DNA of 60,013 nucleotides from Nitrospirota bacterium (GCA_005877775.1 VBOJ01000050.1:1-60013), one strand, 5' to 3'. Counted from the stretch's first letter, positions 11,619 through 53,263 are shown. Notes: a model not told the origin generated them from the sequence alone. Numbers and translations are program-made.

Positions 11619-12889
11619 CCGCCGCAGCGACTCCCCTCACGCCAGAGACCGAGGCCAAAGTCCAGGAGATCGGCGAAACGGACGTTCTGGTCGGCATTCC
11701 CAGTTATAACAACACCGACACGATCGGCCATGTCGTCCGCGCAGTCAGCGCCGGACTGGCCAAATACTTTGCCCGATCGCGAGTGGTCTTGGTCAATTCA
11801 GACGGTGGCTCGTCTGATGGCACGCCCGAAGCTGTCTCCCGAGCGGTAGTGGACCTCGGAACCCTGCTGATCAGTGAGCAGCAGAGTCCGCTGCACAAGA
11901 TCATCACGCCCTACCATGGAATCCCCGGGAAGGGCAGCGCGTTTCGGACCATCTTCGAGATCGCGAGGCGGCTGAAGGCAAAGGCCTGCGCGGTCGTGGA
12001 CTCAGATCTCCGAAGCATCACGCCGGAGTGGATCGAGTTGTTGGCCCGGCCAGTGTTGGAGGAAGGCTACGACTATGTCGCACCCTACTATCTCCGTCAC
12101 AAATACGACGGAACCATTACCAACAGCATCGTCTATCCCCTGACCCGCGCCCTCTACGGCCAGCGCATTCGCCAGCCGATTGGCGGTGATTTTGGCTTCT
12201 CCGGGAGGCTGGCGGAACATTATCTGGAGAAACATGTCTGGGAATCTGATGTGGCCCGCTTCGGCATTGATATCTGGATGACGACAGAGGCGATCGCCAA
12301 CGGAGCGAGGGTCTGTCAGAGCTTTTTAGGGGCGAAAATCCATAACCCCAAGGATCCAACTGCCGATCTCTCGGCTATGCTGGTTCAGGTCATGGGAGCT
12401 GTCTTCGCTTTGATGGAAGAGCATCAACCAGTCTGGGGGGGAGTGAAGGGTTCGAATCCCGTCAAGCTGTTTGGGTTCCAGTACGATGTCGGCGTCGAGC
12501 CGGTCAACGTCAACGTGGATCGCATGATCAGCAGTTTCCGGCAGGGCCTCGCTGATCTAGAGCCAATCTGGAGGGAGATGCTGGCGCCGGGTACGGTCGA
12601 AGGGCTCCTTCCCTTAAAGGACTGTCCACTCCAGGCCTTTCGCATTCCCGACGGGCTCTGGGCTCGACTCGTTTATGATGTCGCTGTGTCCTATCACCAT
12701 CGTGTCATGCCACGCGAGCACCTGCTCAAAGCGTTCACACCGCTCTATCTGGGGCGCACAGCGACGTTTGTGCTGGAGACACAAGGACTCACATCTTCCG
12801 AAGCTGAAGGGCGGATTGAGTCACTCTGTCAAGCCTTCGAGGACCGCAAGCCGTATCTGGTAGAACGATGGGGCGCAGGACGCGAGTAG
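11615..12889 (+). CDS. GT-A fold (family 2-like) glycosyltransferase, specificity unknown
   Basis: 424 aa. VLVGIPSYNNTDTIGHVV...VNSDGGSSDGT and VVDSDL motifs. ATGA overlap with the upstream gene. Confidence 0.6.
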   Translation: MTAAATPLTPETEAKVQEIGETDVLVGIPSYNNTDTIGHVVRAVSAGLAKYFARSRVVLVNSDGGSSDGTPEAVSRAVVDLGTLLISEQQSPLHKIITPYHGIPGKGSAFRTIFEIARRLKAKACAVVDSDLRSITPEWIELLARPVLEEGYDYVAPYYLRHKYDGTITNSIVYPLTRALYGQRIRQPIGGDFGFSGRLAEHYLEKHVWESDVARFGIDIWMTTEAIANGARVCQSFLGAKIHNPKDPTADLSAMLVQVMGAVFALMEEHQPVWGGVKGSNPVKLFGFQYDVGVEPVNVNVDRMISSFRQGLADLEPIWREMLAPGTVEGLLPLKDCPLQAFRIPDGLWARLVYDVAVSYHHRVMPREHLLKAFTPLYLGRTATFVLETQGLTSSEAEGRIESLCQAFEDRKPYLVERWGAGRE

Positions 12890-12973
12890 CGTATAGCCAA
12901 TAGCGAACAGCTCTGAACCCGAAGTTGTGCAGGCCCTGCTGGCTCTTCGCTATCAGCTCTCGAGGAGGACATC

Positions 12974-31261: not shown

Positions 31262-31413
31262 GAAGAGCCGATGGCATATGGCCGGAGGACAAGAGCTGAT
31301 GGCGTATGGCTAATGGCGAATGACCGGAGAGTTCCACTTCTTGCCATAAGCTATAAGCTCTTCCGCCCAGGCTATCGGCCGTTAGCCATCAGCTATAAGC
31401 TCTTGGGGTTTTT
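31262..31413. repeat. heptad-phased nested inverted repeat (AGAGCYG ATGGCNN / GCCATMA GCTATAA GCTCT)
   Basis: The whole nuoA-nuoB spacer reads in one 7-nt register, and its left and right halves are imperfect reverse complements. Confidence 0.85.
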
Positions 31414-31932
31414 ATGGGACTGATACAGATCGGACGGCATGAAAAGGACGGGGAACTGGATATCATCACCACGTCGCTGGAAAAGGTCGTCAACTGGGCG
31501 AGGAAAGGCTCCTTGTGGCCTATGACGTTCGGCTTGGCCTGCTGCGCCATTGAAATGATCGCGGCGGTCTCGTCGCGCTATGACATGGACCGGTACGGGG
31601 CCGGCGTGTTCAGGGCCTCCCCTCGCCAATCAGACTTGATGATTGTAGCCGGCACGGTCTGCCGGCGGATGGCTCCCGTCATCAGGAAGATCTACGATCA
31701 GATGCCCGAGCCCAAGTACGTCATCGCCATGGGCTCGTGCGCGACGTCCGGTAACATCTACGACAGCTACAGCGTGGTGCAGGGAGTGGACCGCTTCGTG
31801 CCAGTGGACATCTACGTGCCGGGGTGCCCCCCAACCCCCGAGGCGCTGTTCGACGGCATCTTGAAGTTGCAAGAGCGGATCATGCAGAAGCGGGTGTTCG
31901 TCAAACAGCCTGAGCAAGTGAAAAACGCGTGA
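31414..31932 (+). CDS. nuoB: NADH-quinone oxidoreductase subunit B
   Basis: [14 protein letters not shown] and CPP cluster N2 motifs. Confidence 0.95.
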
Positions 31933-31959
31933 AGGCCTAGTTCGGAAGTTTTGAATTGA

Positions 31960-31999
31960 GCTCACAACTCAGCACTCATCACTTAGCACTGGTTTTTGA
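31960..31999. repeat. heptad repeat ACTCAGC ACTCATC ACTTAGC ACTGGTT
   Basis: Four to five 7-nt units immediately upstream of the nuoC ATG. Confidence 0.7.
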
Positions 32000-32497
32000 A
32001 TGCATCCAATAGCCCAACGCCTCCAGCGGGAATTCCCTGGGGGTTTCGTCAAGTCTGTTGAATGGCGCGGCGATTTGGCCGTGACCGTGCGTCGCGAGAC
32101 AATGCACGACGTGGCTGGGTTTCTCCATGATGATCCCGACATGGATTTCGATTACATCGTGCACGTCAGTTCCGTGGATTGGCCTGATGACGAGGAGCGG
32201 TTTGAGGTCGTCTATGAATTCTATTCGATCCGCAAACGCCATCGCATCAGGCTCAAGGCCCGTGTGCCCGAATCGGATTGCGAAGTCACCTCGCTGACGG
32301 ACCTCTGGAAAGGCGCCGATTTCATGGAGCGCGAGGTCTATGACATGATGGGCATCCGGTTCCGCAATCATCCAGACCTGCGCCGCATTCTCATGCCGGA
32401 TGACTATGATGAGGGCTACCCATTGAGAAAGGATTTTCCCCTGCGGGGCAAGGGGTGGCGGGACACGTTTGAGTTCCTGAACGAAACGAGGCCGTAA
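32000..32497 (+). CDS. nuoC: NADH-quinone oxidoreductase subunit C
   Basis: 165 aa with ERE.YDM.GI.F..HPDLRRIL, typical of NuoC. Confidence 0.9.
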   Translation: MHPIAQRLQREFPGGFVKSVEWRGDLAVTVRRETMHDVAGFLHDDPDMDFDYIVHVSSVDWPDDEERFEVVYEFYSIRKRHRIRLKARVPESDCEVTSLTDLWKGADFMEREVYDMMGIRFRNHPDLRRILMPDDYDEGYPLRKDFPLRGKGWRDTFEFLNETRP

Positions 32498-32500
32498 TGC

Positions 32501-32595
32501 CTCATCAGTGATGAGTCCTGAGGAATGAGTATTTGGGACGCATTGGGCGTTTCTCAACACAGATAACGCATCACGCATAACGAATCACGGGTTTT
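32501..32595. repeat. heptad repeat element (AGTGATG AGTCCTG AGGAATG ... ATAACGC ATCACGC ATAACGA ATCACGG)
   Basis: The nuoC-nuoD spacer stays in a single 7-nt register from 32507 to 32590. Confidence 0.75.
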
Positions 32596-33870
32596 ATGCA
32601 GCCGATCGAAGACCAGCGCAGCAACGCCTATGAAGACCAGCGGAGCACCGTTTATAAGGTGGACCCTGCTCATCCGGAGAGTTCGACCCTGCCGACCCTT
32701 CGGACTGAGGAGTTGCTCCTCAACATGGGCCCGCAGCACCCCAGCACTCACGGCGTCTTGAAAGTAATTCTGGAACTGGAAGGAGAGCGGATTGTCAAGG
32801 CCACGCCGGTCATGGGATTTCTGCATCGAGGCGTAGAGAAGTTGGCGGAAGATGGCACCTACCATCAGTTCATCCCCCACACGGACCGGCTGGATTATGT
32901 CTGCGCGATGTACAACAACTTCGCCTATTGTCGCGCGGTCGAGAAGCTGATGAACATTACAGTGCCGGAGCGGGCTGAGTACCTGCGCACCATTGTGGCG
33001 GAGGTCCAGCGGATCATCGGCCATCAGTTCTGGTTGGGGACGCAAGCGCTGGATATCGGCGCGATGACCGTGTTCTTCTACGCGTTCCGGGACCGTGAGA
33101 TCCTGCTGGACTGGTTCGACGAGTTGTGCGGTGCGCGCTTGACCACGAGCTGGTACCGGATCGGCGGCGTGGAACGGGATTTGACGCCGTCACTGACAGA
33201 GAAGCTCCGACGGTTCCTTGACTACTTTCCGCCCAAGATTGATGAGTACGTGGTCTTTCTCGAAAAGAACCGGATCTGGCTTGCCCGCACCAAGGGGGTA
33301 GCGGTGATCTCAGCCGAAGACGCGGTCAGCTTCGGTCTTAGCGGTCCCACGCTACGTGGCTCCGGCGTGGATTACGATCTGCGGAAGTCTGAGGCCTACG
33401 CGGCCTATCCCCGTTGCGAATTCAGCGTGCCCGTAGGCAAGAACGGCGACACCTACGACCGATACTGGATCCGAGTCCAGGAGATGCGAGAGAGTGTGAA
33501 GATTATCACGCAGTGCCTGGACCAGATGCCGGCAGAGGGATCGATCATGGCCGATGTACCGAGCGTGACCCTTCCTCCGAAGGACCGCGTGTTCACGAAC
33601 TTGGACTCCATGATTCAGCAGTTCAAACTCTTCTCGCAGGGATTCGACGCGCCGCGCGGCGAGATTTACTGCGGCACGGAAGCCCATAAAGGCGAACTGG
33701 GCTTTTACATCGTCAGTGCCGGGGGCGGCAAGCCATACCGCCTGAAGATTCGAGCTCCCTCGTTCATTCACATGGGGGCGTTTGACCACATGTCGCGGGG
33801 GTATATGATCGCGGACGCCGTGACGATCTTCGGGACCTACGATATTGTCATGGGCGAATGCGACCGGTGA
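32596..33870 (+). CDS. nuoD: NADH-quinone oxidoreductase subunit D
   Basis: LNMGPQHPSTHGVLK and HRG.EKL motifs. The N-terminal extension contains a 24-nt tandem duplication. Confidence 0.92.
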   Translation: MQPIEDQRSNAYEDQRSTVYKVDPAHPESSTLPTLRTEELLLNMGPQHPSTHGVLKVILELEGERIVKATPVMGFLHRGVEKLAEDGTYHQFIPHTDRLDYVCAMYNNFAYCRAVEKLMNITVPERAEYLRTIVAEVQRIIGHQFWLGTQALDIGAMTVFFYAFRDREILLDWFDELCGARLTTSWYRIGGVERDLTPSLTEKLRRFLDYFPPKIDEYVVFLEKNRIWLARTKGVAVISAEDAVSFGLSGPTLRGSGVDYDLRKSEAYAAYPRCEFSVPVGKNGDTYDRYWIRVQEMRESVKIITQCLDQMPAEGSIMADVPSVTLPPKDRVFTNLDSMIQQFKLFSQGFDAPRGEIYCGTEAHKGELGFYIVSAGGGKPYRLKIRAPSFIHMGAFDHMSRGYMIADAVTIFGTYDIVMGECDR

Positions 33871-33874
33871 AATG

Positions 33875-33958
33875 GTGAGGCGTGAGGAGTAAGGCGTGAG
33901 GGGTGTGGGGAGCCCGTTGGGATTTCGCCTAACTCCTCACTCCTTACGCCTAACGGAG
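33875..33958. repeat. heptad inverted repeat (GTGAGGC GTGAGGA GTAAGGC GTGAGGG GTGTGGG ... TTCGCCT AACTCCT CACTCCT TACGCCT)
   Basis: nuoD-nuoG spacer. The arms are about 80% complementary and 49 nt (7x7) apart, in the same register. Confidence 0.85.
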
Positions 33959-33966
33959 AAAAAAGA

Positions 33967-36675
33967 ATGGCTCTGAAACCAGCGACGAACCCTGACGTCG
34001 AAGCGGCGACGATCGAGCTGTCCCTTGACGGCCGGATCGTGACGGCTAAAGACGGGGTCTCGCTCTACGACGTGATTGCCAGCACGGGCAACATCGTGCC
34101 GGCCATGTGTTACCACTATACGTTTGACCCCTTCGGCTCCTGCGGCGTCTGTCTAGTCATGGTAGAGGGGAAAAAGGCGCCGGTTCGCTCCTGCACCGCG
34201 AAAGCCACGGCCGGCATGGTGGTGCGCACCGAGGGGGACGACCTGTTCCAGGCCAGAAAAAAGGCGGTCGAGAAACATCTGTCCGTCCACCCGCTGGATT
34301 GTCCGGTCTGCGACGCAGACGGCCATTGCGAGTTGCAGGACATGGCCTTCCAGCACCAGGTGACCACCCTGGCCAACGCCAAGCAAAAGCTGATTCCGGA
34401 GGACACCCGGAGCCTCGTCCTGGATTTCAACATGAACCGCTGCATCGCCTGTGGCGAGTGCATCAACGTATGCAAAGACGTGCTGATGATTGATGCCCTT
34501 CAATTCATGAAGAAGGACGGCTTCACCCAGGTCGTGGCCAAGGGCGATGTCGCGCTTTCCTGTGAGTTTTGCGGCGACTGCTTGGCGGTCTGCCCGGTCG
34601 GTGCGATCACGAACAAGTATTCCAAGTATCTGTACAAGCCTTGGCAGCTCAAAAAGACCACGACAACCTGCAACTACTGCGGCGACGGCTGCCAGATGTA
34701 CATCGAAACCAAGGACAACGAAGTGGTCCGTGTTACCTCTCCCCTGTCCTGGAAGAACAAGTGGGGGGACCGAGCCGAGACGGCAAAGGGGCATGGCGGC
34801 ATCTGTGTGCGAGGGCGATTCGGGTTCCAATACATCGACAGCAAGGCGCGCCTCCGTCAACCGCTGGTGCGCCGTGACGGGAATCTCGTCGAGACCCCTT
34901 GGTTGGAGACGATCCACACTGTGGTCGAGCGGCTGGCCGCCATCAAGGCCCAACACGGCCCCGAGGCAATTGGCGGGCTGATCACGGCCCGGTGCAGCAA
35001 CGAGGAACTCTACCTGTTCCAGAAGTTCATGCGCGCGGCGATCGGCACCAATCAGCTTGACAGCAGCGCCCGTTACGGACACCTAAATTTCGTCCACGCG
35101 GTCCAGCATGCGTTGGGCATCGGCCGGATGATGAATGATTGGGAGGACATCACCAAGGCTAAGACTATCCTCCTTGTCGGAACCAATATTACCGAAACCA
35201 ACCCGCTAACCGCCGTTCGAGTGAAAGAGGCGATCCGCGTCTATAAGTCGCAGGTGATCGTTGTGGACTCCGCCCAGACCAACATCGCCACGCTTGCATC
35301 GCATCCAATGCTGGTGGCGCCGGGGACCGAGGGGCTGTTCATCCAGGGTCTGGTGAAATCGGTGCTTGAGCAGGACCTCGTGGATGAAGAAGCCACGAGT
35401 AAGCACCCGCAAGCGTTCACTGCGCTCAAGCAGGCGGCCTCTAGGGTCCCACTTGACGTGATCGCTGCGCACACCGGTGTGCCGGTCGAGCAGATTCATC
35501 AGGCCGCTGCCATCTTCGCGGAGGCGCCACGTGCGATCATCCTATGCGGCGAGGGGATTGTGCGCCGGACCGGTGGATACAGGCATGTTCTGAACCTGGT
35601 GGACCTGGCCTGGATCACCGGGAAGCTGGGGCGGCCTGGCTGCGGCGTGAATACAATCACCGAAGAACCCAACGAGCAGGGCGCCGCGGACATGGGCGCG
35701 CTGCCGGAATGTTTCCCAGGCCAGGCTCGGTTCGACGATGCGGGAGCGCGCGAGAAGTTTGAGAAGGCCTGGGGTGCTGCGCTGCCAGCGGCGGGCAGTG
35801 GGGCGTCTCTCATGGAGATGCTCAAGCGTTGCCGGAGCGGGCACATCAAGGCGCTGTACGTGATCGGGGAGAACCCGCTCGCCACGCTTCCCTCGTCGGT
35901 CGGAGTCCGAGCCGCTCTGGAGAACCTTGAGCTGTTGATCTGCCAGGATCCGTTTCTGACCGAGACCGCCCAACTGGCCCACATCGTCCTGCCGGCTTGC
36001 ACCTATGCCGAAAAGGACGGCACGTTCACGAACCTCGAGGGGAAGGTGCTGCGTATCCGGCAGACCATGGATCCCATCGGGGAGAGTCTGCCTGACTGGC
36101 ACATCATGACCGCCATCGCCAACGGACTCGGCTATGAGCTGCCGTACGAATCTGCTCAGGACATCCAGAACGAGATCATGAAACTCCTGCCCGGCTACTA
36201 CAACCTGGGACAGCCTCGGAAGATCTCGCCGAAACCGGAGTCGTATCTCGCGAATGGCTACGCCGCGGAGGTGAGGAATCGGTATCGCAGCGATCTCAAG
36301 CGGAAGCCGGCGAGCGGGGGAACCGCTCGGCGTTCGTTCACTCTGCTGATGGGTCAGGTGCTCTACCACTCCGGCAAGCTCTCCACGCAGGCCTCCGGAT
36401 TGATCAAAATCTTGCCAAACACCGGTCGGCTCCACATGAACGCGAGAGATCTCGAGCAGATGGGACTGGGGGAAGGCGCGCGGGTCCGGGTCACCTCGCC
36501 GAAGGGATCGCTGGAGCTTGGCGTGCAGGCTGACCTGACGGTCCTGCCCGGCTCGTGCTTCTTCCCGGAGCACTTCAACGAGCCTCAGGTGAAGGACTTG
36601 ATGCCGGTCGAGGTGGATGCCGACACCGGCGTGCCCTATTTCAAACTGGCCGAGGTGACGATCGAAAAGCTGTAA
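33967..36675 (+). CDS. nuoG: NADH-quinone oxidoreductase subunit G-like Fe-S / molybdopterin-fold protein
   Basis: 902 aa. N-terminal 2Fe-2S Cys pattern, HPLDCPVCDADGHCELQ, 4Fe-4S motifs, and a molybdopterin oxidoreductase-like body. Confidence 0.88.
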   Translation: MALKPATNPDVEAATIELSLDGRIVTAKDGVSLYDVIASTGNIVPAMCYHYTFDPFGSCGVCLVMVEGKKAPVRSCTAKATAGMVVRTEGDDLFQARKKAVEKHLSVHPLDCPVCDADGHCELQDMAFQHQVTTLANAKQKLIPEDTRSLVLDFNMNRCIACGECINVCKDVLMIDALQFMKKDGFTQVVAKGDVALSCEFCGDCLAVCPVGAITNKYSKYLYKPWQLKKTTTTCNYCGDGCQMYIETKDNEVVRVTSPLSWKNKWGDRAETAKGHGGICVRGRFGFQYIDSKARLRQPLVRRDGNLVETPWLETIHTVVERLAAIKAQHGPEAIGGLITARCSNEELYLFQKFMRAAIGTNQLDSSARYGHLNFVHAVQHALGIGRMMNDWEDITKAKTILLVGTNITETNPLTAVRVKEAIRVYKSQVIVVDSAQTNIATLASHPMLVAPGTEGLFIQGLVKSVLEQDLVDEEATSKHPQAFTALKQAASRVPLDVIAAHTGVPVEQIHQAAAIFAEAPRAIILCGEGIVRRTGGYRHVLNLVDLAWITGKLGRPGCGVNTITEEPNEQGAADMGALPECFPGQARFDDAGAREKFEKAWGAALPAAGSGASLMEMLKRCRSGHIKALYVIGENPLATLPSSVGVRAALENLELLICQDPFLTETAQLAHIVLPACTYAEKDGTFTNLEGKVLRIRQTMDPIGESLPDWHIMTAIANGLGYELPYESAQDIQNEIMKLLPGYYNLGQPRKISPKPESYLANGYAAEVRNRYRSDLKRKPASGGTARRSFTLLMGQVLYHSGKLSTQASGLIKILPNTGRLHMNARDLEQMGLGEGARVRVTSPKGSLELGVQADLTVLPGSCFFPEHFNEPQVKDLMPVEVDADTGVPYFKLAEVTIEKL

Positions 36676-36688
36676 CACCCCCACCCAT

Positions 36689-36714
36689 CCCTCCCCCTGT
36701 GTGAAGGGGGAGGG
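36689..36714 (+). other. perfect 10-bp C/G-tract hairpin in the nuoG-nuoI spacer
   Basis: CCCTCCCCCT-gtgtga-AGGGGGAGGG with no U-tract after it. Confidence 0.8.
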
Positions 36715-36743
36715 ACAGGGAGGGACCTGAGCGGGAGAGCCTC

Positions 36744-37334
36744 ATGAGCGTGAGCGTGTTGGCAAAACAACTGTTGGACGCGGTGATGTTCCGCGAGATC
36801 TGGAACGCGATGAAGGTCACCTTCACACACATGTTCCATCGCCCCATCACTTTTCAATATCCGCGAGAAGAGCGGACGATTCCTGACACCCACCGAGGGG
36901 CCCTCGCGTTGCTGCGTTACGATGACGGGGCTGAGCGGTGCGTGGGTTGCGATCTGTGCGAGGTCGCCTGCCCCTCCCACTGCATCAAAGTCGTCAGCAC
37001 CGAAGATGAGTCCCTTCCCCTGCGACGGTACGCGAGCGAGTTCTATATCGACATAACCAAGTGCGTGTTCTGCGGCTATTGTGTGGAGGCATGCCCTGTG
37101 AATGCGCTGGCGATGACGAAGATGTACGAATACTCAACCCATGACAAACGTACGCTCCTGTTCGATAAGAAACGGCTCTACGAGATCGGCGAACGATTCA
37201 TCGAGGATGCCAAGAAATACCTGTACGCGCACAATCAGGAGAAAAACGATCAGATGTTCCACGACTACCGCTACTTCTTCCCCCAGTCGGTTCTCAAACC
37301 AACACAACCGTTGCCACCCAAACACCTGACCTGA
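36744..37334 (+). CDS. nuoI: NADH-quinone oxidoreductase subunit I
   Basis: Two ferredoxin motifs, CVGCDLCEVACP and CVFCGYCVEACP. Confidence 0.92.
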   Translation: MSVSVLAKQLLDAVMFREIWNAMKVTFTHMFHRPITFQYPREERTIPDTHRGALALLRYDDGAERCVGCDLCEVACPSHCIKVVSTEDESLPLRRYASEFYIDITKCVFCGYCVEACPVNALAMTKMYEYSTHDKRTLLFDKKRLYEIGERFIEDAKKYLYAHNQEKNDQMFHDYRYFFPQSVLKPTQPLPPKHLT

Positions 37335-37346
37335 GCCGTACCCCCT

Positions 37347-37874
37347 ATGGTCCTTGCCTTCTTCGCTTACTGCTCTCTGGTCAGCATTGTGGCCGGGTTC
37401 CTCACGGTTGCCCTGAAAAACCCGGTGCACTGCGGAATTGCGCTCCTGACTCTCCTGCTGCATGTGGCCGGCCTGTTCGTCCTCTTGAACGCGGAATTCC
37501 TGGCCATGGTCCAGATCATCGTCTATGCGGGTGCGATCCTGGTCCTGTACCTGTTCGTGTTGATGCTGCTCAATTTGAAGACCGACGAACGGTACTTGCA
37601 TTCAAGGTTCGCGTTGATTCTGTTCGCAGCCGTGGCAATTTGCGGCGAGCTCCTCCTCTTGATCGTGGGATCTCCTTTCGGCGGGTTGAAGGGTGACGCG
37701 CCCACGGAGGTGGTCCTCAAGGACGGAGCCAGTTATGCGATCGGCATCAAGATGTTCAGCGACTACCTGCTACAGTTCGAGATCATCGGCGTCTTCCTGA
37801 CGGGCGCAATCGTTGGGGCGATTGTGTTGGCCAAGACACCGACGTCCGCCGACATTGATAACCGTGAGGGGTAA
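37347..37874 (+). CDS. nuoJ: NADH-quinone oxidoreductase subunit J
   Basis: 175 aa, 5 TM helices, and VQIIVYAGAILVLYLFV typical of NuoJ. Confidence 0.9.
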   Translation: MVLAFFAYCSLVSIVAGFLTVALKNPVHCGIALLTLLLHVAGLFVLLNAEFLAMVQIIVYAGAILVLYLFVLMLLNLKTDERYLHSRFALILFAAVAICGELLLLIVGSPFGGLKGDAPTEVVLKDGASYAIGIKMFSDYLLQFEIIGVFLTGAIVGAIVLAKTPTSADIDNREG

Positions 37875-37947
37875 GGCGTTAGGCATGTGGCGCGAAGGCG
37901 GACAGGGTGTCGTGACCCCTTACGCCTCACCCCTTACGCCTTACGAG
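37864..37947. repeat. heptad inverted repeat (GTGAGGG GTAAGGC GTTAGGC ... TTACGCC TCACCCC TTACGCC TTACGAG)
   Basis: nuoJ-nuoK spacer. The left arm contains the nuoJ TAA stop. Confidence 0.85.
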
Positions 37948-37952
37948 TCGTT

Positions 37953-38255
37953 ATGGTCCCGTTAAGCGCATACGTGGCACTCAGCGCGACCCTGTTCGCG
38001 ACCGGGCTGATCGGCGTGCTGATCCGCCGGAACTTCATCATCGTCTTGATGGCGGTAGAGATCATGCTGAATGCGGCCAATATCAATCTGGTGGCCTTTT
38101 CCCACTACTTGGAATCCATGACCGGTCAGATCGTGGCACTCTTCGTCATCGCCATCGCGGGCGGGGAGGCGGCCGTCGGGTTGGCCATTATCATCGTAGT
38201 GTTCCGCGGGAAAATCTCAACGAACGTCGACGAGATCAACCTCTTGAAGTGGTAA
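37953..38255 (+). CDS. nuoK: NADH-quinone oxidoreductase subunit K
   Basis: 100 aa starting at MVPLSAYV, with the MAVEIMLNAANINLVAF motif. The ORF extends to 37887 only by reading through the repeat. Confidence 0.9.
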   Translation: MVPLSAYVALSATLFATGLIGVLIRRNFIIVLMAVEIMLNAANINLVAFSHYLESMTGQIVALFVIAIAGGEAAVGLAIIIVVFRGKISTNVDEINLLKW

Positions 38256-38256
38256 C

Positions 38257-40251
38257 GTGTTCGATCTGCTTGTCATTCTGATCCCCGCCCTCCCGCTGAC
38301 AGCCGTCCTCTTGAATGGGCTGTTGGGGACTCGCTACTCGCATGAGTTCGCACATCGGCTGGGCTGGGGCTCGGTCGCGGGGTCCTTCCTCTGCTCGATC
38401 GTCGTGTTCGCCGATACGCTCAAGACCGGCGCCGTGCAGGAAGTGACGGTCTATACTTGGATCTTCGGCGGCGACCTGACGATCAATTTGGCCTTCCTCA
38501 TCGACCCTCTCACCTGCATCATGCTGCTGGTGGTCACCGGCGTCGGGTTCCTGATCCATCTGTACTCGGTCGGGTACATGCATGGCGAGCGTGGCTTCAC
38601 GCGCTTTTTCACATACATGAACCTGTTCATGGTGTCCATGCTGCTCCTGGTGATGGGAAACAATTATCTCGTCCTCTTCATCGGATGGGAAGGCGTGGGG
38701 CTCTGCTCCTACCTCCTGATCGGATACTATTACGACCGCGTCTCGGCCGCCAAAGCCGCCACGAAAGCGTTCGTGGTCAACCGAATCGGTGACGCCGGAT
38801 TTCTCCTGGCGATCTTTCTGGTCTTCGTGAACTTCAACACACTGGACTATACCCAGGTGTTTGCGCAAGCCGGCAAGCTTTCACCGGAGATGGCGACGGC
38901 AATCGCCATCTGCCTGCTGATCGGCGCGATCGGGAAATCAGCCCAGATCCCCCTGTACACCTGGCTGCCGGATGCGATGGAAGGCCCCACCCCGGTCAGC
39001 GCGCTGATTCACGCTGCCACCATGGTCACGGCCGGCGTCTATATGATCGTCCGAAACCATGTGATCTACGACATGTCGCCGGTGGCGATGACCACGGTGG
39101 CCTGGGTCGGCGGCCTGACCGCGCTGTTTGCCGCGACGATCGGGCTCGTCCAGAACGACATCAAACGCGTACTGGCCTATTCTACCGTGAGCCAGCTCGG
39201 CTACATGTTCCTCGCCTGCGGGATCGGCGCATACACGGCCGCGATCTTTCATCTGATGACCCACGCGTTCTTCAAGGCTCTGCTCTTCCTCTCGGCCGGC
39301 TCCGTGATCCACGCCCTGTCGGGCGAACAGGACATCCGGAACATGGGCGGGCTGAAGGCCAAGCTCCCCTGGACCCACAGCCTGTTCCTGGTGGGCACCT
39401 TGGCCATTGCCGGCATCTTCCCGCTGGCCGGGTTCTGGAGCAAGGACGAAATCATGGCGCATGCCTTCACGCATCGTTACTACGCGCTCTATGCGATGGC
39501 CGTACTCGGCGCGTTCCTGACGTCCTTCTACATGTTTCGACTCACGTACCTGACGTTCTACGGGCAGTCGCGAGTCGACCACCACGTCGCCGAGCACATC
39601 CATGAATCCCCCCCGGTCATGACCGGACCGCTGGTGGTCTTGGCAGTCCTTTCCGTGATTGGTGGCTTCCCCGGGGTGCCGCCTGAGGAAGGGTGGTTCC
39701 ATGATTTCCTCCGTCCGGCCGCTGCCGGGGCCGGCGAAGTGCACTCGGCCGGACTGGGACTCGTCGTGGCACTGATGGGGGCGGCGACCGTGATCGCCCT
39801 GATGGGCTGGGGGCTGGCACACTACCTCTACGGCATCCGTCCCGAGGCGGCGCAGGAGTGGGTTGCCGTTGCGCCCCACGCCTACCAGACGCTCCTCAAT
39901 AAATACTACGTCGACGAGCTCTATGACTTGCTGGTGGTCGAGCCGACCAAACGGCTTGGCATGGTCTGTGACTGGTTCGATCGGACCGTGATCGATGGCA
40001 TCGTGCTGGGCGTCTGGCGCGTAACCCAATCAGGCTCGGCGCTCAGCACAGGATTCGAGAAATATGCGATCTATGGACTCATTAATGTCGCGGGATACGC
40101 CAACCATCTGGCCGCGCGATCCTGGCGGAAACTGCAGAGTGGAATGGTGCACCATTACGCCGCCATGATTGTGGCAGGGCTGTTCATTCTGGTCCATCTG
40201 ATCCTGGCCTGGTGGACCGGTTCTACCGTGTTCGGCCTGGCCTTGCGATAG
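38257..40251 (+). CDS. nuoL: NADH-quinone oxidoreductase subunit L (long form, 664 aa)
   Basis: GTG start. WEGVGLCSYLLIGYYY and VLAYSTVSQLGYMF motifs. Confidence 0.92.
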   Translation: MFDLLVILIPALPLTAVLLNGLLGTRYSHEFAHRLGWGSVAGSFLCSIVVFADTLKTGAVQEVTVYTWIFGGDLTINLAFLIDPLTCIMLLVVTGVGFLIHLYSVGYMHGERGFTRFFTYMNLFMVSMLLLVMGNNYLVLFIGWEGVGLCSYLLIGYYYDRVSAAKAATKAFVVNRIGDAGFLLAIFLVFVNFNTLDYTQVFAQAGKLSPEMATAIAICLLIGAIGKSAQIPLYTWLPDAMEGPTPVSALIHAATMVTAGVYMIVRNHVIYDMSPVAMTTVAWVGGLTALFAATIGLVQNDIKRVLAYSTVSQLGYMFLACGIGAYTAAIFHLMTHAFFKALLFLSAGSVIHALSGEQDIRNMGGLKAKLPWTHSLFLVGTLAIAGIFPLAGFWSKDEIMAHAFTHRYYALYAMAVLGAFLTSFYMFRLTYLTFYGQSRVDHHVAEHIHESPPVMTGPLVVLAVLSVIGGFPGVPPEEGWFHDFLRPAAAGAGEVHSAGLGLVVALMGAATVIALMGWGLAHYLYGIRPEAAQEWVAVAPHAYQTLLNKYYVDELYDLLVVEPTKRLGMVCDWFDRTVIDGIVLGVWRVTQSGSALSTGFEKYAIYGLINVAGYANHLAARSWRKLQSGMVHHYAAMIVAGLFILVHLILAWWTGSTVFGLALR

Positions 40252-40274
40252 CCGGAGAATGGAGTGAGCGCGTC

Positions 40275-41834
40275 ATGCTAGAGGAATTTGCCTTCGGGTT
40301 TCCGATCCTGTCGCTGTTGCTCTTCCTCCCCTTGCTCGGAGCCCTCTCCTTGTGGCTGCTGGATGACGAGGATCTGATCAAGAACGCGGCGCTGGCCGTC
40401 TCGGCGTTGGAACTCGTCCTCGCGATCATCGTCTTGCTGCGCTTTGTACCGGACTCCGCCGCGATGCAATTCTCCGAGCGACTGCGGTGGATCCCGCCGC
40501 TCGGGATCAGCTACCACCTCGCGGTGGACGGCATCAGCGTCCTGTTCGTCGGCCTCACCGCGTTGCTCACTACCCTGATCGTGGTGCATTCCTGTGATAC
40601 GGTTCGACAGCAGATCAAACTGTATTTCATGACCTTGCTGGCACTTGAGACCACCATCATCGGCATCTTCGTCTCGATCGATCTGATCCTCTTCTTCGTC
40701 TTCTGGGAGCTGATGCTGATCCCCAGCTATTTCCTGATCAAGCTGTGGGGCGGCGGAGTCGAACGGCAGTACGCCGCTCTCAAGTACGTCCTGTACACCC
40801 TGTTGGGCAGTGTGTTCATGCTGGTCGGCATCGCGCTCCTGAACCTGAACTACCATGACTGGGCGGTCACACACCACATTGAGCCCTCCTACTCCTTCGA
40901 CTTCCTCGAGCTTCTGACGGTCCCAATTCCCAGGGACCAACAGATCCTGATCTTCTGGCTGATCTTCGCGGGGCTGGCGTTCAAGGCTCCAATCGTTCCG
41001 TTCCACACGTGGCTCCCTGACGTCCTGCTGGAGGGCCCGATTGGGATGGCGGTTGTCCTGGCTGGGATCAAGCTCGGCACCTACGGCTTCATCCGGTTCA
41101 GCCTGCCTCTCTTGCCGGACGCCTCAAAGAGCGAGGGAGTGGTGACGATCATGGCGACGTTGGCCTTGATCGCAATCGTCTATGGAGCGATCGTGGCTCT
41201 GATCCAACCGGATTTTCGCCGACTGCTGGCGTTCAGCAGCATCAGCCATCTGGGCTTCGTCGTGCTGGGCCTGTTCGCATTGAACTTCCAGGGCCTGCAG
41301 GGAAGCTTGCTGACCATGATCAACCTCGGCTTCAGCACCGCCGGACTGTTCTTTATGGCCGGGTTTCTCTACGTAAGGCGGCACAACACCCATCTGTCAG
41401 CCTTCGGCGGGCTCGCCCGACAAGTCCCGCTGCTGGCGACGTTCTTGCTGATCATCGGACTCGCCTCGATCGGGCTTCCGGGTACCAATGGGTTCGTCGG
41501 AGAGTTTCTGATCCTGCTCGGCGCCTTCAAGGCGCATTGGGTCTATGGCGCGGTGGCGGTGACAGGCGTCATCTTGGGAGCAGCCTATTTCCTGTGGTAC
41601 TACGAGCGGGCCATGTTCGGGCCCTTGGCGCAGGGGCTGGGTCAGGCGATGGCGGACCTGCATGCCCGCGAACTGTTCATCGCCGTTTCGTTGTCCATTA
41701 TGATTTTCTGGATCGGACTCTACCCGGCTCCGTTCCTGCGGATCATGAATGGCTCGGTGCAGGCGCTCGTTCAACGGTTGGACCACGGGTCAGCGGGCGC
41801 AGTCCAGGCCACAAGGCTCATCTCGCGCGAGTAA
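40275..41834 (+). CDS. nuoM: NADH-quinone oxidoreductase subunit M
   Basis: LLAFSSISHLGFVVLG and an antiporter-like fold. Start at MLEEFAFG with a GGAG RBS. Confidence 0.9.
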   Translation: MLEEFAFGFPILSLLLFLPLLGALSLWLLDDEDLIKNAALAVSALELVLAIIVLLRFVPDSAAMQFSERLRWIPPLGISYHLAVDGISVLFVGLTALLTTLIVVHSCDTVRQQIKLYFMTLLALETTIIGIFVSIDLILFFVFWELMLIPSYFLIKLWGGGVERQYAALKYVLYTLLGSVFMLVGIALLNLNYHDWAVTHHIEPSYSFDFLELLTVPIPRDQQILIFWLIFAGLAFKAPIVPFHTWLPDVLLEGPIGMAVVLAGIKLGTYGFIRFSLPLLPDASKSEGVVTIMATLALIAIVYGAIVALIQPDFRRLLAFSSISHLGFVVLGLFALNFQGLQGSLLTMINLGFSTAGLFFMAGFLYVRRHNTHLSAFGGLARQVPLLATFLLIIGLASIGLPGTNGFVGEFLILLGAFKAHWVYGAVAVTGVILGAAYFLWYYERAMFGPLAQGLGQAMADLHARELFIAVSLSIMIFWIGLYPAPFLRIMNGSVQALVQRLDHGSAGAVQATRLISRE

Positions 41835-41840
41835 CATTCT

Positions 41841-43556
41841 ATGATCGACTCGACCTTGCTGATTATTTTGTTCGCGCCCTTCGCGGGTGCCACCACGTTA
41901 CTGTTCGTGTCGAATAAACAGGCGCTATTGGTCCGCGTGATTGCCGCAGCCGCGGCCGGCATGTCGCTGCTCACCTCCTTCTACATGTTCTTCGCATACG
42001 ATCCTGTGGAAGGTGGATTTCAGTTCGTGAAGCGGTTTGAGTGGTCGAAGGAGTTGGGCATCGCCTTCTACCTCGGCGTGGACGGCATCGGGGCACCGCT
42101 GGTACTGGCGTCTTCCATTCTATTGTTTGCCGGGATCTTCATCTCCTGGCACATCAAGGACCGCACCAAGGAGTTCTACATTTTCTTGCTGATCCTGGCT
42201 GCCGCCACCATGGGCGTGTTCATGTCCCTGGACCTGTTCTTCCTCTATTTCTTTTATGAGATGTCGGTCATCCCGATGTACCTCCTGCTGGGGGTCTGGG
42301 GCAGTCATACCAAGGGCTACCTGGACATGTCCGATCCCGAAGGCCTGAAAAAGCGCGATTCGGTCGGGTTCATCTTCAACTTTGCCGCCAACAGTAAGGA
42401 ATACGCCGCGATGAAGTTGACGCTGTTTCTGTCCGTCGGAGCGGTCGTCGCGCTCATGGGCATCCTGTTGATCTATAAGTTCTCGGGCCTCAACACGTTC
42501 GACATCCTGGTCCTGCGCGAGCAGGCCAAGTTCTCCGGCTCGCTGGCCACGATCATTTGGCTCCTGATCTTCTTTGGGTTCGCCTCGATCGCGCCGATCT
42601 GGCCTCTGCACTCCTGGTCGCCGGTCGGCCATGCCGCGGCGCCGGCCGCCACCAGCATGTTGCACGCGGGCGTCTTGATGAAGCTGGGACATTTTTCGAT
42701 CATCCGCATTGCCTTCGAGATTCTGCCCGAGACCACCCACGAGCTGATGCCGATTGCGGCCGTGCTCTGCATCTTCAATATATTTTACGGCGGATTTGTG
42801 GCCTATTACGCACGGGACACCAAGTATGTGATCGGGTACTCCAGCTCCAGCCATATGGGGTACGTCTTCCTCGGCATGGCGGCGCTGGACTACATCAGCC
42901 TGACCGGCGCGGTGCTCTACATGTTCGCGCATGCCTTGGCCACCGGCATGCTCTTCGCGATGGCCGGGTGGATCTATGACCAGACACACATGCGCGACAT
43001 TCCGTCGCTCGGAGGACTGGTCAACCGGATGCCGTTCGTCGCAGCCTGCTTCATGGTGGCCTGTATGGCCTCGATCGGCATGCCCGGCACGGTGAACTTC
43101 ATCGCCGAAGTCATGATCATCGTCGGAAGCTGGCACAAATATCCGTTCCAGGTTCTAGTGGCCGTGGCGGGGATCGCCCTCACGATGGCGTACCTGTTCA
43201 GAATGATGCGAGGGGTGTTCTACGGACCGATGGAGCACAAGTACAGCCATGCGCACGATGCGGTGGCGCCGGTGGATCGGCTCCCGCTGTTGCTCATGAT
43301 CGCCTGCAGCATCGCGTTTGGCATCTTCCCTGGACACTTCTACGACGTCATCCGGTCCGGGGTAGACCCTCTCGTGACCCGCATCACGGCGGTTGTGCCG
43401 CTGGCGGAGCAAACCCGTGAGGAGTTAGGGGTAAGGAGTGAGGCGAAGGTCTCCGGAGATCTGAGCCGGTCGCTGCTGCCCTCCGATAACCCCTCACCCC
43501 TCACGCCGACTCGACTGAGCTCGTCGCAGGCTCACGCCTCACGAGGATCGGAATGA
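41841..43556 (+). CDS. second NuoM-type antiporter-like subunit (571 aa)
   Basis: VIGYSSSSHMGYVFLG and FFYEMSVIPMYLLLG motifs. The last ~44 codons translate a heptad repeat element. Confidence 0.85.
   Translation: MIDSTLLIILFAPFAGATTLLFVSNKQALLVRVIAAAAAGMSLLTSFYMFFAYDPVEGGFQFVKRFEWSKELGIAFYLGVDGIGAPLVLASSILLFAGIFISWHIKDRTKEFYIFLLILAAATMGVFMSLDLFFLYFFYEMSVIPMYLLLGVWGSHTKGYLDMSDPEGLKKRDSVGFIFNFAANSKEYAAMKLTLFLSVGAVVALMGILLIYKFSGLNTFDILVLREQAKFSGSLATIIWLLIFFGFASIAPIWPLHSWSPVGHAAAPAATSMLHAGVLMKLGHFSIIRIAFEILPETTHELMPIAAVLCIFNIFYGGFVAYYARDTKYVIGYSSSSHMGYVFLGMAALDYISLTGAVLYMFAHALATGMLFAMAGWIYDQTHMRDIPSLGGLVNRMPFVAACFMVACMASIGMPGTVNFIAEVMIIVGSWHKYPFQVLVAVAGIALTMAYLFRMMRGVFYGPMEHKYSHAHDAVAPVDRLPLLLMIACSIAFGIFPGHFYDVIRSGVDPLVTRITAVVPLAEQTREELGVRSEAKVSGDLSRSLLPSDNPSPLTPTRLSSSQAHASRGSE
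43417..43543. repeat. heptad inverted repeat (GTGAGGA GTTAGGG GTAAGGA GTGAGGC ... TAACCCC TCACCCC TCACGCC) inside the 3' end of the second nuoM
   Basis: Same family and same 7-nt register (arms 70 nt apart) as the nuoD-G and nuoJ-K spacers. Confidence 0.8.
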
Positions 43557-52084: not shown

Positions 52085-52090
52085 TCAACA

Positions 52091-52207
52091 AGAGCTGATA
52101 GCTTATAGCGAATAGCCGATGGCCAGAGTAGCCGGCAGAGCTTATGGCTCACAGCAAGAAGTCGGAGTCTCCTGCCATAAGCCATTAGCCATACGCCATT
52201 AGCTCTT
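52091..52207. repeat. heptad inverted repeat (AGAGCTG ATAGCTT ATAGCGA ATAGCCG ATGGCCA ... CCATAAG CCATTAG CCATACG CCATTAG CTCT)
   Basis: Lies between convergent genes. 52181-52207 is the reverse complement of 31291-31317 with 26 of 27 identities. Confidence 0.85.
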
Positions 52208-53222: not shown

Positions 53223-53263
53223 GCGAAAGGGGTGAGGCGTTAGGCGAAACCCCGGAAGAGAGG

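What the first reader, a model, noticed from the sequence alone, without database searches (positions are those of the whole stretch)
31933..43556. Almost every long spacer of the nuo operon carries its own variant of the heptad element
Each of these spacers holds 4-5 tandem heptads on one or both sides, all in a single 7-nt register:
- nuoB-C (31960-31999): ACTCAGC ACTCATC ACTTAGC.
- nuoC-D (32507-32590): AGTGATG AGTCCTG AGGAATG ... ATAACGC ATCACGC ATAACGA ATCACGG.
- nuoD-G (33875-33951): GTGAGGC GTGAGGA GTAAGGC GTGAGGG ... AACTCCT CACTCCT TACGCCT.
- nuoJ-K (37864-37947).
- nuoM'-N (43417-43543).

The arms are separated by exact multiples of 7 (49 nt at nuoD-G, 70 nt at nuoM'-N). The nuoB-C arm (ACTCATCACT) is the exact complement of part of the nuoC-D left arm (AGTGATGAGT), so complementary arms also bracket the whole nuoC gene. 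Short junctions (I-J, K-L, L-M, M-M') lack the element.

This pattern suggests a structured RNA element that shapes processing, stability or differential translation of a 14-kb polycistron. Alternatively it is a REP-like selfish repeat that prefers operon spacers.
Basis: seen in the sequence. Interest (0 to 1): 0.85.

Follow-up and report, generated by a model that had tools for sequence, protein, structure and literature searches.

The report
Heptamer-repeat hairpins between Nitrospira complex I genes
The gaps between the complex I (nuo) genes of this Nitrospira genome hold short hairpin-forming DNA repeats built from 7-base units that usually contain a stop codon; they resemble a poorly understood repeat class known from cyanobacteria and Xanthomonas and behave more like mobile or expanding DNA than like a conserved regulatory RNA.

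Summary
The 7-nt tandem arrays are real and far beyond chance: 8 arrays at lag 7 against 0-2 at other non-multiple lags, and 12 pattern hits against 0.01 expected.

Most sit as inverted pairs that form long imperfect hairpins. D-G, J-K, A-B and M'-N fold better than shuffles; B-C and C-D do not.

Several details of the finding fail:
- The "M'-N spacer" lies inside the nuoM' reading frame.
- The "single register / multiples of 7" claim depends on arbitrary bracketing.
- The largest copy, a nested one in A-B, was omitted.

In 80 Nitrospira species:
- The same junctions are either tight or filled.
- Heptad sequences differ widely (66 consensus units in 117 arrays) but share a TGA/TCA core.
- Copy number changes in 7-nt steps.
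- Copies nest in each other's loops.
- Arrays are about 29-fold denser per intergenic kb in nuo than in flanking DNA. Most of this comes from D-G and J-K, plus bursts in some lineages.

No strand-specific RNA signature was found (G.U:A.C mismatches 27:27) and there is no Rfam match.

Best reading: STRR/REP-like heptamer palindromes that are harmless to translation because they carry stops in all three frames, and that may act as intercistronic stem-loops. New variant of a known kind.

The parts
31263..31404 (+). nuoA-B spacer. Nested double copy of the 'AAGAGC-(NNATRGC)n ... (GCYATNN)n-GCTCTT' family. The outer copy is 31263-31404; the inner copy, 31291-31362, sits in its loop.
   Evidence: Exact pattern hits at 31263, 31291 (+) and 31343-31362, 31385-31404 (-). 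Lag-7 array at 31295-31322. Fold z -2.5.
31961..31990 (+). nuoB-C spacer. One array, ACTCAGC ACTCATC ACTTAGC (the TCA-type arm), with only a weak partner arm.
   Evidence: TRF period 7, 3.4 copies. Lag-7 hit. Spacer fold not better than shuffles, z +0.13.
32507..32590 (+). nuoC-D spacer. A degenerate TGA-type left arm (AGTGATG AGTCCTG AGGAATG) and the array ATAACGC ATCACGC ATAACGA ATCACGG.
   Evidence: TRF 32566-32589. Lag-7 hit 32562-32590. Fold z -0.35.
33874..33956 (+). nuoD-G spacer. The clearest hairpin: GTGAGGN x4, a loop, then NCCTYAC x3-4, with TGA/TAA every 7 nt on the 5' arm.
   Evidence: TRF. Lag-7 hits 33874-33912 and 33926-33956. MFE -44.5 kcal/mol, z -4.9. Pattern hits.
36680..36724 (+). 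nuoG-I spacer. A GC-rich hairpin that is not heptad-built (10-nt tandem GGGAGGGACA).
   Evidence: TRF 36708-36726, period 10. Fold -37 kcal/mol, z -2.0.
37864..37946 (+). nuoJ-K element. The left arm GTGAGGG GTAAGGC GTTAGGC overlaps the last codons and the TAA stop of nuoJ. The right arm is CCCCTTACGCCTCACCCCTTACGCCTTACG. nuoK most likely starts at ATG 37953.
   Evidence: The Pfam Oxidored_q2 domain starts at residue 29 of the longer ORF. Fold z -3.2.
43417..43543 (+). Element inside the 3' coding tail of nuoM' (ORF 41841-43556). The left arm is GTGAGGA GTTAGGG GTAAGGA GTGAGGC, the right arm is CCCCTCA CCCCTCA CGCC, followed by GCTCACGCCTCACG. The heptad that falls in frame reads TTA instead of TGA/TAA.
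   Evidence: Orthologue tails. Fold z -2.4.
52090..52207 (.). A copy of the AAGAGC/ATRGC family outside nuo, between convergent genes 51602-52084 (+) and 52199-52789 (-).
12885..12961 (.). A degenerate copy of the AGC family just after ORF 11615-12889.
   Evidence: Pattern hits with 2 mismatches. Sequence. Fold not significant.
53225..53244 (+). A single GTGAGG-type arm directly after the stop of ORF 52812-53222, next to a terminator-like GC hairpin followed by a T run.
   Evidence: z -3.7 for the region.

Best explanation
These are copies of a class of small palindromic repeats. Each arm is 3-5 tandem 7-nt units with 5-6 conserved bases and 1-2 variable ones. Most units carry a TGA/TAA core, the other arm carries its complement, and a variable loop separates the arms. 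This is a Nitrospira counterpart of cyanobacterial STRR hairpins and the Xanthomonas heptamer inverted pairs.

SHOWN
- The elements are gained and lost at gene junctions.
- They occur as several sequence families that recur at different junctions and in different genomes.
- They change copy number in 7-nt steps.
- They insert into the loops of existing copies.

INFERRED
- They spread at the DNA level: slippage within arrays, plus hairpin or loop-targeted insertion or template switching. No transposase was identified.
- They survive inside an essential operon because they are harmless to translation. A stop triplet every 7 nt closes all three frames within 21 nt on either strand. The upstream gene's stop is often the first unit, and a GAGG/GGGG Shine-Dalgarno follows the 3' arm. 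Where a copy sits inside nuoM', the one heptad that would place a stop in frame reads TTA.
- On the nuo mRNA they would fold into 20-30-bp imperfect stem-loops between cistrons. Their most likely effect resembles REP/STRR hairpins: barriers to 3'-5' decay and loosened translational coupling. This would be a side effect or a weakly selected function rather than a conserved riboregulator.
For: - Period-7 excess in the window and in 1.4 Mb of 80 orthologous loci: 109 arrays at lag 7 against at most 22 at other non-multiple lags.
- Junctions alternate between tight and filled across species.
- 117 arrays give 66 consensus units. 79 contain TGA/TCA against 29.7 expected, and 98 contain a stop on either strand against 65.9 expected (maximum 81 in 2000 shuffles).
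- Families recur across junctions and genomes. Nested copies are seen in WIN A-B and L055 B-C.
- Indels of 7 and 14 nt separate species. A 15-nt tandem duplication separates L006 and L009 at A-B.
- The upstream stop is in phase with the first heptad stop in 11 of 32 cases, against about 4.6 expected.
- About 20 of 41 species carry arrays inside the nuoM2 tail, with TTA at the in-frame unit.
- Both strands fold equally well and G.U:A.C is 27:27, which points to DNA-level symmetry.
- The same architecture occurs on many metagenomic contigs with GC from 0.35 to 0.74. There it lies mostly between co-directional (16) or convergent (5) housekeeping genes and rarely between divergent ones (1).
- Literature precedents: PMC2670836, PMC4692102, PMC4679880.
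Against: - No transposase or RAYT was found in the window.
- No target-site duplication at K-L or B-C. The 10-nt duplication at A-B may only reflect the need to keep both gene ends.
- A purely neutral element does not explain the roughly 29-fold higher density in nuo spacers, nor the persistence of occupied D-G and J-K junctions in most species.
- D-G spacers fold better than shuffles in 51% of species (z below -2), which hints at some selection for pairing.
- The stop-preserving bias TGA to TAA on the sense strand is weak (15 against 8, versus 6 against 6 on the antisense strand).
- The function on RNA is entirely inferred.
Confidence: 0.55

Rival explanations
1. Selected cis-acting RNA stem-loops of the nuo polycistron. 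The hairpins are kept because they set segmental mRNA stability or processing, or tune translational coupling and subunit ratios. The heptad make-up is merely how they arose.
For: - Strong concentration in nuo.
- D-G is occupied in about 70 of 80 species and J-K in about 34, while the sequences turn over.
- 51% of D-G spacers have z below -2.
- The hairpin is retained in an orthologous group, with 13 one-sided G.U changes against 8 breaks.
- An element is kept in frame inside nuoM2 ahead of the ATGA coupling site.
- STRR hairpins between hupS and hupL have been proposed to act this way (PMC2670836).
Against: - No sense-strand signature: fold energies are symmetric and G.U:A.C is 27:27.
- One compensatory pair in 30.
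- Many species have tight junctions with no hairpin.
- Many J-K copies have lost one arm.
- B-C and C-D in the window do not fold significantly.
- No Rfam family matches.
Confidence: 0.22
2. Purely local simple-sequence expansion. Arrays arise in place by slippage of the 7 nt around the stop codon and Shine-Dalgarno sequence (TGAGGNN, TAAGGAG). Palindromy comes from later inverted duplication, and no mobility is involved.
For: - Gene stops in phase with arrays.
- Short J-K junctions in L019 and L025 consist of three single-arm heptads, CGTGAGG CGTAAGG GGTAAGG, that span the stop and the SD.
- 7-nt indels.
- A 15-nt tandem duplication in A-B.
- The literature reports general over-representation of heptamer SSRs in bacteria (PMC4692102, PMC4679880).
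Against: - The same families, with the same AAGAGC...GCTCTT ends, occur at A-B, at K-L and at a convergent gene pair outside nuo, and in different genomes.
- Nested copies sit in loops.
- Most families (TGAATNN, GTGACGN, GCTGANN, ATRGCNN) contain no SD.
- Slippage alone does not produce a complementary second arm.
Confidence: 0.15
3. Binding arrays for a multimeric RNA- or ssDNA-binding protein that reads a triplet every 7 nt. Precedents are HutP on XAG-N4 repeats flanking a stem, and cold-shock or S1-type OB folds that cover about 7 nt.
For: - A TGA (TRA) core recurs every 7 nt and is the only feature shared across families.
- There are usually 3-4 units per arm.
- HutP binds three XAG motifs spaced by 4 nt on each side of a terminator stem (PMC2425495).
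- CspB binds heptamer repeats, as cited in PMC4679880.
Against: - The second arm is the complement (TCA-N4), not a second set of the same triplet.
- Within an array the non-core positions are as conserved as the core, which fits descent by slippage.
- No candidate protein is present in the window.
- There is no strand bias.
Confidence: 0.06
4. Chance or compositional artefact of GC-rich intergenic DNA.
For: B-C and C-D arrays are short (3.4 copies, 82% matches) and their spacers do not fold better than shuffles.
Against: - Lag-7 excess over other non-multiple lags in the window and in 80 genomes.
- 12 pattern hits against 0.01 expected.
Confidence: 0.01

Closest known systems
Cyanobacterial STRR (short tandemly repeated repetitive) heptamer sequences, e.g. 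the hairpin between hupS and hupL
   Same: Both have 7-bp units in tandem, lie in intergenic DNA between co-transcribed genes of a multi-subunit redox enzyme, and can form a hairpin. Function is unknown, with transcript stability or translational coupling proposed (PMC2670836). From memory, intergenic regions were described as highly variable but structured between close relatives (Jackman and Mulligan 1995).
   Different: The phylum differs (Nitrospirota). The units differ: from memory, STRR1-3 are CCCCAGT, TTGGTCA and CAACAGT. Here there are dozens of unit variants with a shared TGA core, a strong concentration in one operon, and copies translated within a gene tail.
GGGAATC-type heptamer repeats of Xanthomonas, including 70-75 convergent (inverted) pairs per genome (Rehm et al. 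2015, PMC4692102)
   Same: Both are intergenic heptamer arrays of about 4 units with some variable positions. They are often paired on opposite strands and so could form stem-loops. They are conserved in position between related species while varying in length.
   Different: The Xanthomonas units are one G-rich family proposed to form G-quadruplexes. The Nitrospira units are many families, most of them not G4-prone, and they carry stop triplets.
TAACTGA direct repeats of Beggiatoaceae, Cyanobacteria and Bacteroidetes (MacGregor 2015, PMC4679880)
   Same: The heptamer contains stop codons, so forward arrays close all three frames. The arrays lie just upstream of start codons, sometimes overlap the upstream stop, and include sites within ribosomal protein operons.
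   Different: Those are a single conserved unit in direct repeats only (one inverted case). Here the units are diverse and mostly arranged as inverted pairs.
REP/BIME/REPIN elements of enterobacteria and pseudomonads
   Same: Both are small imperfect palindromes found at the 3' ends of genes and inside operons and rarely between divergent genes. Both show nested or clustered copies. REP elements are known to stabilise upstream mRNA segments and to affect translation of the upstream gene (from memory: Newbury 1987; Liang, Rudd and Deutscher 2015).
   Different: REPs are one or a few conserved 20-40-nt sequences per genome, with a GTAG or CGTC head, and are mobilised by RAYT transposases (PMC3733652, PMC3116915). 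The elements here are built from tandem heptads, are highly diverse in sequence, and no RAYT was seen.

Membership tests
STRR-type intergenic heptamer repeats | Tandem arrays of a 7-nt unit, at least 3 copies | tested here: met
   TRF period 7 with 3.4-4.4 copies. Lag-7 excess in the window and in orthologous loci.
STRR-type intergenic heptamer repeats | Intergenic location, often between co-transcribed genes, with inverted arrays able to form a hairpin | tested here: met
   A-B, D-G and J-K are spacers holding significant hairpins. Exceptions: M'-N is intragenic, and B-C and C-D are not significant.
STRR-type intergenic heptamer repeats | The canonical STRR unit sequences and a heterocystous cyanobacterial host | tested here: not met
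   The host is Nitrospira. The units are GTGAGGN, NNATRGC, ACTCAKC and others. The STRR unit sequences are recalled from memory.
REP / REPIN | One or a few conserved palindromic sequences in high copy number, with a GTAG or CGTC head | tested here: not met
   66 consensus units in 117 arrays. The window families lack a common GTAG/CGTC head. Genome-wide copy number could not be counted.
REP / REPIN | An associated RAYT (Y1 HUH) transposase gene in the genome | not testable with these tools
   No transposase domain was found in the roughly 50 window ORFs scanned. The rest of the genome is not available.
MITE | Terminal inverted repeats plus a target-site duplication, and derivation from a parent IS | tested here: inconclusive
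   The arms are inverted repeats, and AAGAGC...GCTCTT ends recur. No duplication was seen at K-L or B-C. The 10-nt duplication at A-B equals the former gene overlap. A parent IS could not be tested.
Intrinsic terminator / attenuator | GC-rich stem with a short loop, followed by a U tract | tested here: inconclusive
   The consensus scan finds no site at the elements and no excess overall (12 against 10.4). However, A-B, B-C and C-D end in GGGGTTTTT, GGTTTTT and GGGTTTT just before the next ATG.
Conserved structured cis-regulatory RNA (Rfam-type) | A match to a curated family, or covariation supporting a conserved structure on the transcribed strand | tested here: not met
   No Rfam hit at gathering or E<=1 thresholds. 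One compensatory pair of 30. G.U:A.C is 27:27. Sense and antisense fold equally well.
HutP/TRAP-like triplet-repeat protein binding site | A conserved triplet at fixed spacing, repeated at least 3 times, recognised by a multimeric protein | not testable with these tools
   The TGA-N4 pattern is present. The second arm is the complement rather than a repeat of the same triplet. No candidate protein can be examined. HutP precedent: PMC2425495.

The most novel reading that the evidence does not exclude
The heptad hairpins are an evolved 'operon punctuation' system specific to the Nitrospira 2M-type complex I operon. Under this reading the stem-loops are interchangeable in sequence, closed to translation in all frames, and kept at module boundaries (D-G, J-K, the M2 tail). 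They would uncouple or time the translation and membrane insertion of subunits, or set segmental mRNA half-lives, and would be renewed by a dedicated DNA-level mechanism that writes 7-nt units at stop codons.
Probability: 0.12. Interest if true: 0.85.

Novelty: new variant of a known kind. Interest (0 to 1): 0.55.

Why it matters
Heptamer tandem repeats have been known to be over-represented in bacterial intergenic DNA since 2007. They have still hardly been studied, and their origin and function remain open (PMC4692102).

The Nitrospira nuo operon offers a natural comparative series. The same 11 junctions can be followed in 80 species, and each is empty, half-filled, filled or nested, so birth, growth, turnover and decay of such repeats can be read directly.

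Three features make the class testable:
- A stop triplet every 7 nt, and its replacement by TTA where a copy is translated.
- Insertion into the loops of existing copies.
- Concentration in one respiratory operon of the main nitrite oxidisers.

If the hairpins do affect nuo mRNA, they would bear on how these slow-growing, hard-to-manipulate bacteria balance complex I subunits.

Tried and rejected
1. Register claim. The arms are different, complementary sequences, so any phase can be chosen. Phase offsets are scattered.
2. RNA-specific pairing. Sense against antisense MFE and G.U against A.C counts show no asymmetry.
3. Rfam at gathering and at E<=1 thresholds gives nothing.
4. The terminator scan shows no excess and no site at the elements.
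5. Homogenisation within a genome. Heptads from the same genome at different junctions are no more alike than those from different genomes at the same junction.
6. Target-site duplications. None at K-L or B-C. The A-B duplication is ambiguous.
7. Long-range pairing around nuoC is not conserved in 4 other genomes.
8. Stop-preserving mutation bias. The trend is not significant.
9. The metagenome scan with the GTRAGG pattern was meant to give an unbiased Nitrospira context. It returned contigs from many organisms (GC 0.35-0.74). This shows the class is widespread but does not give a Nitrospira-wide census.
10. Early negative 'gaps' at C-D were an artefact of using HSP starts. The true empty C-D spacers are about 9-15 nt.
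11. The Elhai et al. 2008 paper on small dispersed repeats could not be retrieved.

Full report
CONTEXT

The window comes from a Nitrospira. NuoD has 89-94% identical orthologues in 80 Nitrospiraceae genomes, including N. moscoviensis. GC content is 59%.

The + strand carries a complex I operon:
- nuoA 30840-31256
- nuoB 31414-31932
- nuoC 32000-32497
- nuoD 32596-33870
- a 902-aa NuoG-like gene, 33967-36675
- nuoI 36744-37334
- nuoJ 37347-37874
- nuoK, most likely from ATG 37953 to 38255
- nuoL 38257-40251
- nuoM 40212-41834
- a second nuoM, 41841-43556
- nuoN 43553-45049

No nuoE, nuoF or nuoH was seen.

THE OBSERVATION

They are not chance:
- Counting windows in which at least 16 of 21 positions match at a given lag, the 60-kb window has 8 arrays at lag 7. 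Other lags give 0-2, apart from 4 at lag 14, a multiple of 7.
- The GTRAGG x3 pattern hits 12 times against 0.01 expected.
- The AAGAGC-NNATRGC x2 pattern hits 12 times against 0.10 expected.

Most arrays come as inverted pairs. As RNA, the spacers D-G (z -4.9), J-K (-3.2), A-B (-2.5) and the M'-N element (-2.4) fold better than dinucleotide shuffles. B-C (+0.13) and C-D (-0.35) do not. The opposite strand folds about as well.

CORRECTIONS TO THE FINDING

1. The M'-N 'spacer' is coding. The nuoM' ORF runs through the element to an ATGA overlap with nuoN.
2. The J-K left arm begins inside nuoJ, and nuoJ's TAA stop is part of the second heptad.
3. 'One register' and 'multiples of 7' are bracketing choices, because the two arms are different, complementary sequences. 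The quoted 49 and 70 nt were not reproducible. Across two-arm elements the phase offset is scattered.
4. The exact 10-nt complement between B-C and C-D is real (3 of 500 shuffles reach it). D-G and J-K share 10 nt in the same way because they belong to one family. Four other genomes with both spacers filled show only 5-6 nt.
5. The biggest element was left out: a nested double copy in A-B, with the outer copy at 31263-31404 and the inner at 31291-31362.
6. G-I holds a GC-rich hairpin that is not heptad-built.
7. Copies also lie outside nuo at 12885-12961, 52090-52207 (between convergent genes) and 53225-53244.

COMPARATIVE PICTURE

Gene order is conserved in the 80 orthologous loci, but the junctions are not.

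Many species have tight junctions:
- A-B overlaps by 10 nt (ATGGGACTGA).
- B-C is 7-18 nt.
- C-D is about 9-15 nt.
- J-K runs from a 4-nt overlap to a spacer of about 13 nt.
- K-L is 1 nt.
- M2-N overlaps by 4 nt.

A subset has most junctions expanded to 70-140 nt with heptad hairpins: L002, L004, L007, L015, L020, L032, L050, L055 and this window.

D-G is long in about 70 of 80 species and J-K in about 34. In many of these the spacer is a heptad hairpin, yet the heptad sequence differs from species to species: GTCAGC, CGTCA, TGAATG, GTGAAA, GATTTGG, GTGAGG and others.

Lag-7 arrays number 109 in 1.4 Mb, against at most 22 for other non-multiple lags.

WHAT THE UNITS SHARE

The 117 arrays give 66 distinct consensus heptads.
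- 79 contain TGA or its complement TCA, against 29.7 expected from letter-shuffled heptads.
- 98 contain a stop triplet on one strand or the other, against 65.9 expected (maximum 81 in 2000 shuffles).

Because 7 = 2 x 3 + 1, three consecutive units put a stop in each reading frame. The complementary arm does the same for the opposite strand.

The upstream gene's own stop codon is in phase with the first unit in 11 of 32 arrays that start within 12 nt of it, against about 4.6 expected. Examples are TGACAAG TGACGCG TGACAAG in L002 and TGACGAG TGATGAG TGACGAG in N. moscoviensis.

The 3' arm is commonly followed by GAGG or GGGG a few nucleotides before the next ATG.

THE nuoM2 TAIL

In about 20 of 41 species, heptad arrays lie inside the C-terminal coding tail of NuoM2, up to the ATGA overlap. 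L003, L040 and L062 have short tails without them.

The reading frame stays open because the one unit that would place its stop in frame reads TTA:
- GTTAGGG in the window.
- CGTTAGR in L026, L033, L038, L053, L059 and L066.

This is direct evidence that the stop triplets matter when ribosomes traverse an element. It also shows that the M'-N copy is an old in-frame insertion rather than a spacer. L027 carries a different family (GTCAGC) at the same place.

EVIDENCE FOR DNA-LEVEL DYNAMICS

- The same family, with the same ends (AAGAGC ... GCTCTT), occurs in the window at A-B (twice, nested), at 52.1 kb and, in degenerate form, at 12.9 kb. It also occurs in L002 at A-B and K-L, in L015 at K-L, and in L045 and L055 at A-B.
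- L055 B-C has a GTAATTG element nested in the loop of a GTGACG element.
- Orthologous D-G elements differ by gaps of exactly 7 or 14 nt.
- The A-B spacers of L006 and L009 differ by a 15-nt tandem duplication.
- Many J-K copies keep a perfect CCTCACG x4 arm while the other arm has decayed. As a result only 29% of J-K spacers have z below -2.
- Heptads are not homogenised within a genome.
- No target-site duplication is seen at K-L or B-C.
- At A-B the former 10-nt overlap is present on both sides of the insert. This could be a duplication made at insertion, or simply the only way both genes could survive.

IS IT AN RNA ELEMENT?

Nothing specific supports that:
- Sense and antisense MFEs do not differ (38 against 34, Wilcoxon p=0.15).
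- In the 36 best stems, G.U and A.C mismatches are 27:27.
- An orthologous D-G group keeps a 30-pair hairpin but shows only one compensatory pair.
- Rfam has no match.
- The terminator scan finds nothing at the elements, although A-B, B-C and C-D end in G-rich runs followed by T4-5.

On the other side, 51% of D-G spacers have z below -2 and 26% have z below -3. Pairing potential is therefore retained more often than chance while the sequence turns over.

PREFERENCE FOR nuo

- In the 80 loci, 104 arrays lie in the nuo span (867 kb) and 5 in the flanks (534 kb).
- Per intergenic kb, that is 1.47 against 0.05.
- Per junction, it is 89/749 against 5/377, or 5/225 for co-directional pairs.
- Most of the excess comes from D-G and J-K. 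Without them the rate is about 23/600, close to the flank rate.
- In element-rich genomes the excess is operon-wide. In this window 7 of 11 nuo junctions are occupied, against about 3 of roughly 50 others.

However, the preference combines two or three long-occupied sites with lineage-specific bursts.

BEYOND NITROSPIRA

About 30 of these show the same two-armed architecture.

For those with both neighbours called:
- 16 lie between co-directional genes, 5 between convergent genes and 1 between divergent genes.
- The neighbours are ordinary housekeeping genes: purH/purD, trpA/B, aminotransferases, ubiD, tatD, lptFG and RNR.

The class is therefore widespread and has a REP-like distribution at the 3' ends of genes.

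COMPARISON WITH WHAT IS KNOWN

- Heptamer SSRs are known to be over-represented in bacterial intergenic DNA but are little studied (PMC4692102).
- The closest relatives are cyanobacterial STRR 7-bp repeats. These form a hairpin between hupS and hupL and have been suggested to stabilise transcripts or couple translation (PMC2670836).
- Xanthomonas GGGAATC arrays include 70-75 convergent pairs per genome (PMC4692102).
- TAACTGA repeats close all three frames just upstream of start codons (PMC4679880).
- REP/REPIN elements resemble these in placement and nesting. They differ in being conserved sequences mobilised by RAYTs (PMC3116915, PMC3733652).
- HutP shows that a protein can read a triplet every 7 nt on both sides of a stem (PMC2425495). 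Here, though, the second arm is the complement.
- I found no paper describing these elements in Nitrospira.

VERDICT

The heptad arrays are real and non-random. Several details of the finding are wrong or not meaningful.

The best-supported reading is a diverse, dynamic class of STRR/REP-like heptamer palindromes. They are tolerated in an essential operon because they stop translation in every frame and leave the downstream ribosome-binding site intact. A role as intercistronic stem-loops is plausible but unproven.

The distinctive points are:
- The TGA core.
- Stop avoidance in the translated nuoM2 copy.
- Insertion into loops.
- Concentration in the complex I operon.

I rate it a new variant of a known kind, of moderate interest.

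Noticed in passing
window 30840-45049: The nuo operon reads A-B-C-D-G(like)-I-J-K-L-M-M-N. No nuoE, nuoF or nuoH is present, and no scanned ORF in the window hits a NuoH family. The same order, with G directly followed by I, holds in the 80 orthologous loci. The two junctions where genes are 'missing' relative to the canonical order are D-G, which is nearly always long and occupied by a hairpin, and G-I.
   Followed up: partly
window 32596-32660: The NuoD N-terminus carries an 8-residue tandem duplication (EDQRSNAY EDQRSTVY, 24 nt) directly downstream of the C-D element. Orthologues have a single EDQRTTVY.
   Followed up: no
window 36676-36743: The G-I spacer holds a C-rich/G-rich hairpin (CCCUCCCCC...GGGGGAGGG, -37 kcal/mol, z -2.0) with a 10-nt tandem repeat, GGGAGGGACA. 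It is not heptad-built. In L002, L004, L007, L024, L032 and L047 the same junction carries GAGGC/GCCTC-type heptads.
   Followed up: partly
window 53245-53310: A strong terminator-like hairpin (GGGCGGCCGC...GCAGCCGCCC followed by TTCGTGTTTTTCTGG) lies right after the single GTGAGG-type arm that follows ORF 52812-53222. The region folds with z -3.7.
   Followed up: no
L055 B-C spacer (locus coordinates): A second element built of GTAATTG / TAACTGA-like units is nested in the loop of a GTGACG hairpin. Together with the nested copy in the window's A-B spacer, this suggests that hairpin loops are preferred insertion sites.
   Followed up: partly
L019 and L025 J-K junction: These 16-nt junctions consist of three single-arm heptads, CGTGAGG CGTAAGG GGTAAGG, that span the nuoJ stop and the nuoK Shine-Dalgarno sequence. 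They may be a seed or a remnant state of the GTGAGG family (stop codon plus SD forming one heptad).
   Followed up: no
window 4526-4607 (+) and 56828-56911 (-): Two tRNA genes are the only Rfam hits at gathering score in the window.
   Followed up: no
window 14490-24711: A cluster of trehalose and glycogen metabolism genes: TreT-like synthase, glycosyltransferases, an MFS transporter, OtsA-like GT20, trehalose phosphatase and a branching-enzyme-like amylase. No heptad elements lie at its junctions.
   Followed up: no
L193 4810-5069: On a contig from another phylum (NuoA-D only 33-62% identical), a GTGAGG-type hairpin sits next to a tRNA-Leu-like sequence near a nuo operon. The architecture is therefore not restricted to Nitrospira.
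   Followed up: no
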